A DNA stretch of 64,000 nt from Octopus sinensis (taxonomy: Eukaryota): positions 124,000,001-124,064,000 of the forward strand of contig NC_042997.1 of the NCBI RefSeq assembly GCF_006345805.1, given 5' to 3'. The stretch's first letter is position 1, and each line of letters begins with the position of its first letter. A program made the position numbers. Below, in pieces: positions 58,836 to 60,000 of this stretch.

Positions 58836-59955
58836 CGAGAAAGAAGCAACAAGAATGGATAGGTTTTTAGTACGATCGTTTCATACAAGGACAGGTTTTA
58901 TTAAAAGTTGCAAAGATTACAGCATATAAACGAGTCCCGTACTCATCAGCTAAAATACATGTAAGTTCTCTAGACATCCTAGTGTTTGAGGCTATACTCA
59001 TGAAGTAATGTAGATAATTAAACAGATTTCTAAAGTTCATTAAAGTTCTTTAAAGATGATGTACAGTCTTATCACAGAATTTTAAAAAGTTTTGATAGCA
59101 TCACAGAGAAGGTGACCTAATCCATATGAATTTCCATAGATATTATGAGGGATTATATACTCACAGAAGACAAATTTATCCATTGTTAATTACAACGAGG
59201 TGGGTCTCAATTCCTGCTTATTAGCATTACAGAGAGGGTGAATTAATCCTTTGTATAGATGCACAGATTCCAATGGTGTAGATGTAAATTTCCAGAGAAA
59301 TGTAGATGAATTTCATATTCACAGGCGATAAATCGCGATTTATCGCCTGTGAATATGAAATTCATCTACATTTCTCTGGAAATTTACATCTACACCATTG
59401 GAATCTGTGCATCTATACAAAGGATTAATTCACCCTCTCTGTAATGCTAATAAGCAGGAATTGAGACCCACCTCGTTGTAATTAACAATGGATAAATTTG
59501 TCTTCTGTGAGTATATAATCCCTCATAATATCTATGGAAATTCATATGGATTAGGTCAGCTTCTCTGTGATGCTATCAAAACTTTTTTTAAATTCTGTGA
59601 TAAGACTGTACATCATCTTTAAAGAACTTTAATGAACTTTAGAAATCTGTTTAATTATCTACATTACTTCATGAGTATAGCCTCAAACACTAGGATGTCT
59701 AGAGAACTTACATGTATTTTAGCTGATGAGTACGGGACTCGTTTATATGCTGTAATCTTTGCAACTTTTAATAAAACCTGTCCTTGTATGAAACGATCGT
59801 ACTAAAAACCTATACATTCTTGTTGCTTCTTTCTCGCTTATAATCACCCCACATTACTGTATTGTTAAATCAGTATAGTTTTTTTTTGGTGCATCTAAGT
59901 TAGGTACCATATTCAAGTAAATTCTTTTAAATTAACTTGAATCTTTATTGCTCTT

Positions 59956-60000
<45 letters not shown>

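What the first reader, a model, noticed from the sequence alone, without database searches (positions are those of the whole stretch)
58836..59958. 1-kb perfect fold-back element carrying a hammerhead ribozyme on each strand
Seen: two 500-bp arms joined with zero spacer and ~99% identical. Each strand ends in a canonical-core type I HHR (CUGAUGA, GAAA, 6-bp stem I, palindromic stem III ACGAUCGU, GUA site). The right side continues ~120 bp past the mirror, and the unit sits between (TA)n tracts. There is no ORF. Known: PLEs carry such HHRs in their pseudo-LTRs and form inverted termini. Inference: this is a young non-autonomous PLE/retrozyme-like unit made by self-primed fold-back synthesis. 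Transcription in either direction gives the same 500-bp dsRNA rod, in which the ribozyme is sequestered by its own antisense. That would be a possible self-silencing switch, ADAR substrate or endo-siRNA source.
Basis: partly seen in the sequence, partly recalled or inferred. Interest (0 to 1): 0.88.

Follow-up and report, generated by a model that had tools for sequence, protein, structure and literature searches.

The report
Mirror-duplicated hammerhead-bearing retroelement fragment
A non-coding 0.5-kb repeat unit carrying one hammerhead ribozyme motif sits next to its own mirror image inside a TA microsatellite, which looks like an ordinary by-product of Penelope-type retroelement insertion rather than a new kind of RNA switch.

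Summary
Arms 58836-59335 and 59336-59836 form a zero-spacer palindrome with 4 differences. A 121-bp one-sided extension runs to 59957, and (TA)n abuts both ends.

Each arm carries the same type I hammerhead motif, at 59717-59807 (+) and 58865-58955 (-). It has a complete core, a 6-bp helix I, a long helix II, the palindromic helix III ACGAUCGU and a GUA site. Rfam's Hammerhead_1 model matches end to end but below threshold (22 vs 34 bits), and only in a 131-nt search (searches missed it). My descriptor gave 5 hits in 3000 shuffled windows at looser settings and 0 at the observed helix lengths.

"A ribozyme on each strand" is simply one motif mirrored. There is no ORF, no second copy and no PLE gene in the window.

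Published PLE features match: inverted 5'-truncated copies, hammerheads in pseudo-LTRs, microsatellite targets and a one-sided tail. So the locus most likely is a head-to-head pair of truncated PLE or retrozyme-type fragments, with no evidence of function here.

Sequestration of the ribozyme in a 500-bp RNA rod follows from thermodynamics. The switch, ADAR and siRNA roles remain speculation. An assembly artefact is not excluded.

The parts
58731..58835 (.). Left flanking compound microsatellite, (TA)n-(GA)n-(TA)n. Its last run, (AT)12.5 at 58811-58835, directly abuts the left arm.
58836..59335 (-). Left arm: an inverted copy of the unit, read 5'->3' on the minus strand from the centre outwards. 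It lacks the outer 121 bp present on the right.
   Evidence: 98.8% over 507 nt by blastn; 4 differences by global alignment
58865..58955 (-). Mirror copy of the type I hammerhead motif. Cleavage is expected between 58871 and 58870. Its closing stem is broken by the G58858 difference.
   Evidence: RF00163, 22.0 bits, E 0.0021, model 1-45/45; closing-stem pair probabilities <=0.015
59328..59343 (.). Centre of symmetry, between 59335 and 59336. There is no spacer, and the central bases are themselves a short CG-containing palindrome.
   Evidence: I2: 252-nt arms, 100% complementary, 0 nt between them
59336..59836 (+). Right arm: the unit in plus orientation, 5'-truncated at the centre. It contains a degenerate internal direct repeat (59338-59444 vs 59496-59603).
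   Evidence: internal repeat score 53 vs shuffle mean 27, sd 5.2, max 48
59712..59817 (+). Type I hammerhead motif with its closing stem. Closing stem 59712-59716/59813-59817; helix I 59717-59722/59802-59807; core CUGAUGA 59723-59729; helix II from 59730 to 59789 (4 bp + bulge + 5 bp, about 40-nt loop); GAAA 59790-59793; palindromic helix III 59793-59800; cleavage 3' of A59801.
59837..59957 (+). One-sided 121-bp extension of the right copy up to the microsatellite. It has no mirror on the left and no similarity elsewhere in the window. It may be the 3' end or 'tail' of the unit, or original flanking DNA.
59958..59988 (.). Right flanking (TA)15.5, followed by (TG)n and further simple repeats, including (ATT)20 at 60076-60137.

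Best explanation
The 1122-bp block 58836-59957 is a non-coding, 5'-truncated 3' fragment of a hammerhead-bearing retroelement. That element would be a Penelope-like element pseudo-LTR or its non-autonomous 'retrozyme' derivative. The fragment lies head-to-head with an inverted copy of itself inside a (TA)n microsatellite.

INFERRED MECHANISM. The element's endonuclease cut a (TA)n target. Reverse transcription was primed from the target and copied the RNA from its 3' region up to the position now at 59336. Synthesis then turned back on the nascent cDNA, helped by a short palindrome at that point, and produced the mirror arm. The mirror arm was joined to the other side of the (TA)n target at a TATA microhomology.

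The hammerhead is a passenger inherited from the parent element. Its architecture (unstable palindromic helix III) is that of ribozymes that need a second copy to form an active dimer. Each strand here has only one copy, so efficient cleavage in cis is not expected. If the whole block were transcribed, the RNA would zip into a roughly 500-bp hairpin that buries the ribozyme.

The locus is most likely a young, inert insertion relic.

SHOWN: the anatomy, the motif, the rod fold, and the absence of ORFs and of other copies in the window.
INFERRED: PLE parentage, the order of events, and the lack of function.
For: STRUCTURE. A zero-spacer palindrome with 4 differences in 500 nt implies that both arms share one truncation point. 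One arm was therefore copied from the other, rather than arising from two independent insertions.

MOTIF. The hammerhead has a full core and three helices plus a closing stem. It is the best Rfam family for the segment. It is far rarer than chance: 5 hits in 3000 shuffled windows at looser settings, and 0 at the observed helix lengths.

RIBOZYME TYPE. Helix I of 6 bp and a 2-bp helix III capped by a palindromic tetraloop match the description of metazoan type I hammerheads that act as dimers (PMC4209133 passages; PMC7229834 passages).

PLE FEATURES IN PRINT. [quoted passage not shown] PMC11167929 (passages) reports that a PLE protein cleaves and extends both target strands and starts reverse transcription internally on the RNA. 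The 2026 preprint 10.64898/2026.07.22.740005 (abstract and passages) reports solo retrozyme monomers and pLTR-retrozyme homology.

LOCAL CONTEXT. Both ends of the block abut (TA)n. No ORF in the block exceeds 60 aa. The neighbourhood is TE-rich and intergenic.

AGAINST A SIMPLE FOLD-BACK READ. Only 500 bp are mirrored, the outer 121 bp are not, and the two flanks are unrelated.
Against: Rfam's curated threshold is not reached (22 vs 34 bits), and the match appears only when the search space is cut to 131 nt.

The G10.1-U11.1 pair departs from the G-C pair that PMC4209133 calls highly conserved. The roughly 40-nt loop II is atypical.

The isolated 91-nt RNA is no more stable than shuffles (z -0.81; 46 of 200 shuffles fold at least as well). 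Its minimum-energy fold is not the hammerhead fold (-14.3 vs -9.0 kcal/mol when constrained).

There is no covariation evidence, because only two near-identical copies exist.

There is no PLE reverse transcriptase or GIY-YIG gene among the 50 ORF translations tested. The one RVT_1 trace is below threshold and 36 kb away. No second copy of the unit exists in 64 kb, so family membership is untested.

The published PLE tail is 30-40 bp, whereas the asymmetry here is 121 bp. In the cited paper, (TA)n bias is reported for Naiads, which lack canonical hammerheads.

(TA)n tracts occur about every 1-2 kb in this window.

All three substitution-type arm differences are transversions and the fourth is a homopolymer indel. 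That pattern is also what sequencing or polishing error could give.

Long spacer-less palindromes are described as the most fragile kind (PMC7999016 passages).
Confidence: 0.5

Rival explanations
1. A DNA-level fold-back. A solo copy of the unit already lay at 59336-59957. A break or stalled fork next to it let the 3' end snap back at the short central palindrome. A DNA polymerase copied about 500 nt of the same strand, and the end was rejoined at TA microhomology in the neighbouring microsatellite. Retrotransposition played no part in making the mirror.
For: Fold-back priming at breaks near short inverted repeats yields inverted duplications (PMC10622511 passages). Inverted repeats as short as 5-9 bp suffice (PMC7999016 passages). 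The centre is itself a short palindrome, so a snap-back would leave no visible spacer. The outer junction of the left arm coincides with a TATA-containing stretch on the right arm and with (TA)n on the left (I1 extends 6 nt into it). Microsatellite-dense DNA is break-prone (inference).
Against: The published fold-back events extend to chromosome scale and pass through dicentric intermediates. They are not 500-bp local insertions. This reading also needs a second, precise template switch or join. It does not explain why the block as a whole sits exactly within a (TA)n tract, although a pre-existing insertion would explain that.
Confidence: 0.22
2. A library or assembly artefact. A fold-back or chimeric long read (or an amplification chimera) put an inverted copy of a real single unit into the consensus, and the assembler joined it to the true left flank within low-complexity (TA)n.
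For: [quoted passage not shown] Whole-genome amplification creates artificial palindromes (PMC6218980, abstract in the search listing only). PLE insertions are said to cause assembly problems. The arm differences are three transversions plus one homopolymer indel, which looks like error. Spacer-less long palindromes are expected to be unstable in vivo.
Against: An artefactual fold-back read is palindromic along its whole length. Here the mirror stops after 500 bp, omits the adjacent 121 bp and the right-hand (TA)n/(TG)n, and has an unrelated left flank made of a SINE-like repeat. The palindrome lies in the interior of gap-free sequence (0 N in the window), about 4 kb from the window's end. No other such palindrome exists in the window, so there is no sign of a systematic problem.
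Confidence: 0.18
3. The hammerhead-like motif is a chance look-alike inside an unrelated fold-back or MITE-type DNA element or a local inverted duplication, so no ribozyme or retroelement is involved.
For: The Rfam score is below gathering. There is no thermodynamic signal. The G-U pair at 10.1-11.1 and the very long loop II make the descriptor permissive. At the 5/4/3 setting the shuffles imply about 26 chance hits per Gb, so a genome-wide scan would meet some.
Against: There were 0 hits in 3000 shuffles at the observed helix lengths. A closing stem lies beyond a loop-1-like bulge, and the 8-nt helix III is fully palindromic. Neither feature was required by the descriptor, and both are typical of metazoan type I hammerheads. 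No target-site duplication and no TA/TTA-type termini were seen at the arm ends. There is no second copy in the window.
Confidence: 0.08
4. A functional hairpin-RNA gene. The palindrome is transcribed and diced into endo-siRNAs (or edited by ADAR) that act on the parent element family, with the hammerhead acting as a gated processing site.
For: The predicted fold is a near-perfect 498-bp hairpin. Long inverted repeats are known siRNA and ADAR substrates (recalled, no call).
Against: There is no evidence of transcription, small RNAs, editing or conservation. None of the arm differences is an A/G change. The ribozyme is fully sequestered in the rod and has no partner copy on the same strand. My searches found no paper describing a hammerhead-bearing palindrome as an siRNA source.
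Confidence: 0.04

Closest known systems
Penelope-like element insertions with an adjacent inverted 5'-truncated copy (Craig et al. 2021, PMC8557442, passages seen)
   Same: Head-to-head inverted arrangement of 5'-truncated copies. A hammerhead in the terminal (pLTR) region. Insertion into microsatellites so that no target-site duplication can be read. Extra sequence at one end only.
   Different: No reverse transcriptase or GIY-YIG ORF, and no full-length partner. Both copies share one truncation point, giving a perfect zero-spacer palindrome. The one-sided extension is 121 bp rather than 30-40 bp. Homology to any named PLE could not be tested.
Metazoan non-LTR retrozymes and their solo monomers (PMC7229834, passages; preprint 10.64898/2026.07.22.740005, abstract and passages)
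   Same: Non-coding, AT-rich and intergenic. Carries a type I hammerhead with a 6-bp helix I and a short palindromic helix III. Thought to depend on PLE machinery.
   Different: Retrozymes are direct tandem repeats of about 170-400 nt that release monomers and circles. Here there is one hammerhead per strand and a unit of at least 501 nt, in inverted rather than tandem order, so no unit-length RNA can be excised. The hammerhead is internal and intact, not split at the ends as in a processed monomer.
Dimer-dependent type I hammerheads of newt/axolotl satellites and PLE minimal hammerheads (PMC4209133; PMC7229834; Lunse et al. 2017 seen only in a reference list)
   Same: Helix III is too weak for a monomer (probability 0.001) and is palindromic, so two copies could build an 8-bp intermolecular helix III.
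   Different: Those ribozymes have a partner in tandem on the same transcript. Here the only other copy is on the opposite strand, so a dimer would need two RNA molecules. Helix II here is 9 bp with a large loop and starts with G-U.
Long near-perfect palindromes such as human PATRRs (PMC7999016 passages; PMC1851657 abstract in the search listing only)
   Same: A palindrome several hundred bp long, spacer-less or nearly so, in AT-rich non-coding DNA. Expected to be cruciform- and hairpin-prone and unstable.
   Different: PATRRs are more than 90% AT and are not derived from a ribozyme-bearing repeat. This one is 32% GC with complex sequence.
Hairpin-RNA (hpRNA) endo-siRNA loci of animals (recalled, no call)
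   Same: An inverted duplication whose transcript would be a long perfect hairpin.
   Different: No expression or small-RNA evidence. Known hpRNA loci have loops and are conserved.

Membership tests
Hammerhead ribozyme, type I (Rfam RF00163) | Conserved core: C3-U4-G5-A6-N7-G8-A9, G12-A13-A14, the A15.1-U16.1 pair, and H17 at the cleavage site | tested here: met
   CUGAUGA at 59723-59729, GAAA at 59790-59793, A59793-U59800, A59801. The mirror is identical.
Hammerhead ribozyme, type I (Rfam RF00163) | Three helices around the core, with helix I open-ended | tested here: met
   Helix I has 6 bp plus a 5-bp closing stem. Helix II has 4+5 bp (or 7 contiguous including G-U pairs). Helix III has 2 bp plus a tetraloop, or 8 bp as a dimer. 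Ensemble probabilities are 0.30-0.76 for helix I, 0.47-0.90 for helix II and 0.001 for helix III.
Hammerhead ribozyme, type I (Rfam RF00163) | Score at or above Rfam's gathering threshold | tested here: not met
   22.0 bits against 34. There were 0 matches in the whole-window gathering search, and none of the 51 matches at E<=10 in 1.5 kb was a hammerhead. The 54-nt loop II insertion carries the penalty.
Hammerhead ribozyme, type I (Rfam RF00163) | G10.1-C11.1 pair at the base of helix II | tested here: not met
   G59730 pairs with U59789, a wobble pair. PMC4209133 calls the G-C pair highly conserved.
Hammerhead ribozyme, type I (Rfam RF00163) | Covariation that keeps the helices across homologues | not testable with these tools
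   Only two near-identical mirror copies exist. No eukaryotic genome collection was available, and the prokaryotic scan gave 0 matches.
Hammerhead ribozyme, type I (Rfam RF00163) | Site-specific self-cleavage | not testable with these tools
   This needs a bench assay.
Penelope-like element (PLE) | ORF with a telomerase-like reverse transcriptase and a GIY-YIG endonuclease | tested here: not met
   0 of 50 ORF translations matched GIY-YIG. 1 of 50 gave a sub-threshold RVT_1 match (20 bits against 29.6) at 22856-23173 (-), with no support from the neighbouring ORFs or from PDB. A truncated non-autonomous piece would not carry the ORF anyway.
Penelope-like element (PLE) | Hammerhead located in the pseudo-LTR or terminal repeat | tested here: inconclusive
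   The hammerhead lies 35 nt from the arm's outer end and 156 nt from the microsatellite. Whether this region is a pLTR cannot be said without a full-length relative.
Penelope-like element (PLE) | Complex tandem or inverted insertions of 5'-truncated copies, often in microsatellites, with a tail at one end | tested here: met
   An inverted pair truncated at 59335/59336, (TA)n at both ends, and a one-sided 121-bp extension, compared with passages of PMC8557442. This is a resemblance, not proof.
Penelope-like element (PLE) | Sequence homology to a known PLE terminus | not testable with these tools
   No repeat library or eukaryotic genome collection was on hand. The closed collections were not used.
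Non-LTR retrozyme | Two or more direct tandem units, each with a type I hammerhead, so that a monomer can be excised | tested here: not met
   There is one hammerhead per strand in 64 kb. The arm has only a degenerate hammerhead-less internal repeat, and the copies are inverted.
Non-LTR retrozyme | Linear and circular RNAs of unit length | not testable with these tools
   No expression data were available.
Fold-back / MITE-type DNA transposon | Terminal inverted repeats flanked by a target-site duplication, in many copies | tested here: not met
   The arm ends are flanked by ...ATATA on the left and CTTATA... on the right, with no duplication. There is no other copy in the window. Genome-wide copy number is not testable.
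hpRNA / endo-siRNA locus | Transcribed long hairpin that yields small RNAs | not testable with these tools
   Only the fold could be computed (-862.8 kcal/mol, z -73).

The most novel reading that the evidence does not exclude
The palindrome is a selected hairpin-RNA gene made from a ribozyme-bearing retroelement. Transcription yields a roughly 500-bp dsRNA that feeds siRNA or editing pathways against the parent PLE/retrozyme family. The buried hammerhead acts as a conditional processing site that fires only when the base of the rod is opened. That would couple ribozyme activity to dsRNA metabolism.
Probability: 0.04. Interest if true: 0.7.

Novelty: new member of a known kind. Interest (0 to 1): 0.3.

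Why it matters
If the locus is real, it is a compact case of the 'inverted 5'-truncated copy' that accompanies PLE insertions. Both junctions can be read at base resolution.

A shared truncation point with no spacer argues that the inverted copy arises by turning back on the nascent cDNA. The alternative, two independent priming events on the two cut target strands, would not give that symmetry. The mechanism of PLE integration is still being worked out (PMC11167929; PMC8557442), and a set of such loci from one genome could test it.

A single locus without family context adds little by itself. The ribozyme is very probably a passenger here.

Tried and rejected
RFAM. The whole-window gathering search gave 0 matches. 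The 1.5-kb search at E<=10 gave 51 matches. All were below gathering. They were mostly miRNA, snoRNA and similar small-RNA models fitting the palindrome centre or the microsatellites, which any hairpin or simple repeat would match. I rejected them as miRNA genes.

OTHER COPIES. blastn of the 623-nt right unit against the window found only the unit itself, its mirror, and two chance matches of 17 and 32 nt. An exact 24-nt scan of prokaryotic genome contigs found 0, as expected and uninformative.

PLE GENES. Pfam was run on 50 ORF translations. These were the 10 longest of 60 ORFs >=110 aa; 30 of the 83 ORFs that passed an entropy filter, out of 132 ORFs >=85 aa; and 10 of the 50 ORFs >=45 aa near a weak RT trace. 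No GIY-YIG was found. The RVT_1 trace gave nothing in PDB (29 matches, all E>=0.22 and unrelated). The other 92 ORFs >=85 aa were not scanned.

CpG AS AN AGE MARKER. The observed/expected ratio is 0.54 in the element and 0.83 in the window, which is inside the 5-95% range of same-size windows (0.52-1.18). This is uninformative.

tRNA HEAD FOR THE NEIGHBOURING SINE-LIKE REPEAT. 0 tRNA genes were found.

INTEGRATED VIROID-LIKE OR DELTAVIRUS-LIKE CIRCLE WITH RIBOZYMES OF BOTH POLARITIES. Rejected. In a DNA palindrome the two transcripts are the same sequence, so there is one ribozyme, not two. The rod is almost 100% paired, and there is no ORF.

MITE OR FOLD-BACK TRANSPOSON. No target-site duplication was seen.

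LITERATURE. Searches found no description of a hammerhead-bearing perfect palindrome as an RNA switch or siRNA source. PMC8490949 passages held nothing relevant. Supplementary files, such as the hammerhead figures of PMC4209133 and the consensus files of PMC8557442, were closed and might hold closer matches.

NOT CHECKED. No structure, complex or atlas job was relevant. The source organism was not identified.
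Full report
WHAT IS THERE

The window is 64,000 bases with no N, 34.7% GC and dense microsatellites.

Between a compound (TA)n/(GA)n tract ending at 58835 and a (TA)15.5 tract starting at 59958 lies a 1122-bp block of complex sequence. Its first 1001 bases are a palindrome. 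The left arm is 58836-59335 and the right arm is 59336-59836, with no spacer. The repeat finder reports a 252-nt core that is 100% complementary with 0 nt between the arms, and outer 264-nt segments that are 98% complementary.

Global alignment shows four differences:
- G58858 against A59814.
- G59112 against G59559.
- T4A5 at 59080-59088 against its mirror T7A3 at 59583-59592, which amounts to one substitution and one 1-nt indel.

All three substitutions are transversions. The right side continues for 121 bp (59837-59957) with no mirror on the left. A scan of all centres found no other non-microsatellite palindrome in the window with arms of at least 30 nt and a spacer of at most 20 nt.

THE RIBOZYME MOTIF

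On the plus strand the sequence shows:
- a 6-bp helix I (59717-59722 with 59802-59807);
- CUGAUGA (59723-59729);
- a helix II that opens at 59730 and closes at 59789 (4 bp, a bulged U, 5 bp, then a loop of about 40 nt);
- GAAA (59790-59793);
- the fully palindromic octamer ACGAUCGU (59793-59800);
- A59801 as the cleavage-site nucleotide.

I also found a 5-bp closing stem (59712-59716 with 59813-59817) beyond a 5-nt bulge. This is the layout expected of loop 1 in a type I hammerhead.

Rfam gave nothing at gathering thresholds for the whole window. It gave no hammerhead among 51 weak matches in a 1.5-kb search. When the search space was cut to 131 nt, Hammerhead_1 (RF00163) was the best family. 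It aligned over the whole model (1-45 of 45) at 22.0 bits, E 0.0021, against a gathering score of 34. A 54-nt insertion in loop II accounts for much of the shortfall. The mirror at 58865-58955 (-) gave the same result.

My own descriptor required the CUGANGA core, GAAA, the A15.1-U16.1 pair, H17 and minimum helix lengths. It found only these two mirror hits in the window. With helices of at least 5/4/3 bp, dinucleotide shuffles of the window gave 1 hit in 300 and 5 in 3000. At 6/4/3 and at the observed 6/7/4 they gave 0 in 3000. The motif is thus very unlikely by chance in one window. However, the 5/4/3 rate implies about 26 chance hits per Gb, so a genome-wide scan cannot rely on the looser form alone.

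POINTS AGAINST A TEXTBOOK RIBOZYME

- The 10.1-11.1 pair is G-U rather than the conserved G-C.
- Loop II is unusually long.
- The isolated 91-nt RNA is no more stable than shuffles (z -0.81; 46 of 200 shuffles fold at least as well). Its minimum-energy fold (-14.3 kcal/mol) is not the hammerhead fold, which reaches -9.0 kcal/mol when constrained.
- In the ensemble, helices I and II are well populated (0.30-0.76 and 0.47-0.90). Helix III is not (0.001).

A weak, palindromic helix III is what the literature describes for metazoan type I hammerheads that cleave as dimers (PMC4209133 passages; PMC7229834 passages).

The single arm difference near the motif (58858/59814) leaves the right copy's closing stem intact (pair probabilities 0.71-0.87) and abolishes the left copy's (<=0.015).

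'A hammerhead on each strand' adds no information beyond the palindrome. It is one motif, mirrored.

CONTEXT

- No stop-to-stop ORF longer than 60 aa lies within the block.
- The unit has no other copy in the window.
- It contains a degenerate internal direct repeat, 59338-59444 against 59496-59603. The alignment score is 53 against a shuffle mean of 27, sd 5.2 and maximum 48.
- The left neighbour (58220-58669) is one of six copies of a roughly 450-bp SINE-like repeat.
- Pfam scans of 50 ORF translations found a mariner-type transposase remnant (1105-1629 (-), Transposase_1, E 3.9e-24), helix-turn-helix fragments, and one sub-threshold RVT_1 trace at 22856-23173 (-). They found no GIY-YIG domain.

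The locus therefore sits in TE-rich intergenic DNA with no recognisable PLE gene nearby.

(TA)n tracts are frequent. There are 76 perfect runs of at least 8 units, covering 3.5% of the window. Lying between two tracts is unremarkable, but exact abutment of the arm end on a tract is specific.

HOW IT MOST LIKELY AROSE

Craig et al. 2021 (PMC8557442, passages) report that PLE insertions:
- are highly 5'-truncated;
- often have an inverted 5'-truncated copy immediately adjacent;
- carry hammerheads typically in the pseudo-LTRs;
- often show a tail at only one end;
- favour microsatellites, including (TA)n, so that target-site duplications cannot be read.

A biochemical study (PMC11167929, passages) reports that a PLE protein cleaves and extends both target strands and starts reverse transcription internally on the RNA. 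A 2026 preprint (abstract and passages) links animal retrozymes to PLE pseudo-LTRs and describes solo monomers.

The present block fits that picture as a minimal case: two 5'-truncated terminal fragments placed head to head in a (TA)n tract.

Because both arms stop at the same base with no spacer, one arm must have been copied from the other. The central bases are themselves a short palindrome. A 3' end folding back there would leave no visible loop, since the 4-6 central bases that cannot pair are self-complementary in sequence (general point in PMC7999016). The outer end of the left arm coincides with a TATA-containing stretch of the right arm, which suggests a join by microhomology to the (TA)n target.

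Two candidates remain for the enzyme that turned back. One is the element's reverse transcriptase acting at insertion. Hairpin-primed second-strand synthesis is a classical property of reverse transcriptases, which I state from recall. The other is a cellular DNA polymerase acting after a break (PMC10622511 passages). These data cannot decide between them.

WHAT IT DOES

A transcript of 58838-59833 folds into a single hairpin at -862.8 kcal/mol, z -73 against 20 shuffles. It has three internal irregularities and a 4-nt loop, and every ribozyme nucleotide pairs with its antisense.

Each strand has only one sense copy, so the dimer that such a helix III needs could form only between two RNA molecules. 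Nothing in the sequence shows transcription. None of the arm differences is an A/G change of the kind editing would leave. I therefore regard the ribozyme as an inherited passenger and the locus as an inert, probably young relic.

Youth is inferred from two things: the 99.2% arm identity, and the published view that long spacer-less palindromes are the most fragile kind.

ARTEFACT QUESTION

Fold-back reads and amplification palindromes are documented (PMC12870357 passages; PMC6218980 abstract in the search listing only). PLE insertions are said to trouble assemblies.

In favour of an artefact: the arm differences look error-like, being three transversions and one homopolymer indel.

Against a simple artefact:
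- the mirror covers only 500 bp;
- it omits the adjacent 121 bp and the right-hand simple repeats;
- it has an unrelated left flank;
- it lies in the interior of gap-free sequence;
- the window holds no other such palindrome.

I put an artefact at about 0.18.

COMPARISON AND VERDICT

The thing works like, and most probably is, a truncated inverted PLE or retrozyme-type insertion. Membership in the PLE family could not be tested by homology.

Membership in the retrozyme class fails its defining tandem arrangement.

Membership in the hammerhead family is met for core and helices, but not for Rfam's threshold or the G10.1-C11.1 pair.

My searches found no paper describing a hammerhead-bearing perfect palindrome as a switch or siRNA source, so that reading is unclaimed. 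It is also unsupported here.

I rate the finding as a new member of a known kind, with modest interest. Its main value is as a base-resolution example bearing on how PLE inverted copies form.

LIMITS

- No eukaryotic genome or repeat library was available.
- Paper supplements were closed.
- The source organism was not identified.

Noticed in passing
window 58220-58669; also 6344-6441 (partial), 36890-37331, 43998-44366, 45250-45720, 55482-56031: A SINE-like repeat family of about 450 bp has six copies in the window at 78-89% identity, in both orientations. Copies contain an internal (TA)n tract. The copy next to the palindrome ends in an (AGTAAAAG)3.5 tail (58649-58676). ARAGORN found no tRNA-like head.
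   Followed up: partly
window 1105-1935 (-): A mariner/Tc1-type DNA transposon remnant. Transposase_1 matches at E 3.9e-24 (1105-1629), and sub-threshold HTH_32 and Mos1-type HTH_48 matches lie just upstream (1633-1935).
   Followed up: partly
window 17150-17533 (-): An ORF fragment with helix-turn-helix matches. HTH_11, HTH_IclR and HTH_24 are just above their cut-offs, and there is a weak Tc3-type transposase HTH match. It is possibly another transposase remnant.
   Followed up: no
window 22856-23173 (-): A weak, sub-threshold reverse-transcriptase trace (RVT_1, 20 bits against 29.6, E 6e-4). Neighbouring small ORFs and PDB gave no support, and its type (LINE or PLE) could not be told.
   Followed up: yes
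window 25599-25832, 29113-29347, 63410-63646; and 28552-28773, 46091-46351, 61282-61525: Two further short interspersed repeat families of about 235-260 bp, with three copies each at 73-89% identity. They are unclassified.
   Followed up: no
window 13894-14248 vs 14661-15020; 16020-16213 vs 16764-16972; 42154-42373 vs 43147-43352: Three older, diverged inverted-repeat pairs (75-81% identity, spacers of about 400-800 bp). None holds a hammerhead-like motif by my descriptor.
   Followed up: no
window 59338-59444 vs 59496-59603 (and the mirror in the left arm): The arm contains a degenerate internal direct duplication with a period of about 158 bp. The alignment score is 53 against a shuffle mean of 27, sd 5.2 and maximum 48. 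This suggests the parent unit grew by an old tandem duplication.
   Followed up: partly
window 58858/59814, 59083-59088/59583-59592, 59112/59559: All three substitution-type differences between the arms are transversions, and the fourth difference is a 1-nt homopolymer indel. None is A/G. The 58858 change removes the closing stem of the left hammerhead copy only.
   Followed up: yes
whole window; e.g. 60076-60137 (ATT)20.7, 60562-60840 (AT)140, 62975-63124 (CATA)n: Microsatellite load is very high. 76 perfect (TA)>=8 runs cover 3.5% of the window, along with long ATT and CATA arrays. CpG observed/expected is 0.83.
   Followed up: partly
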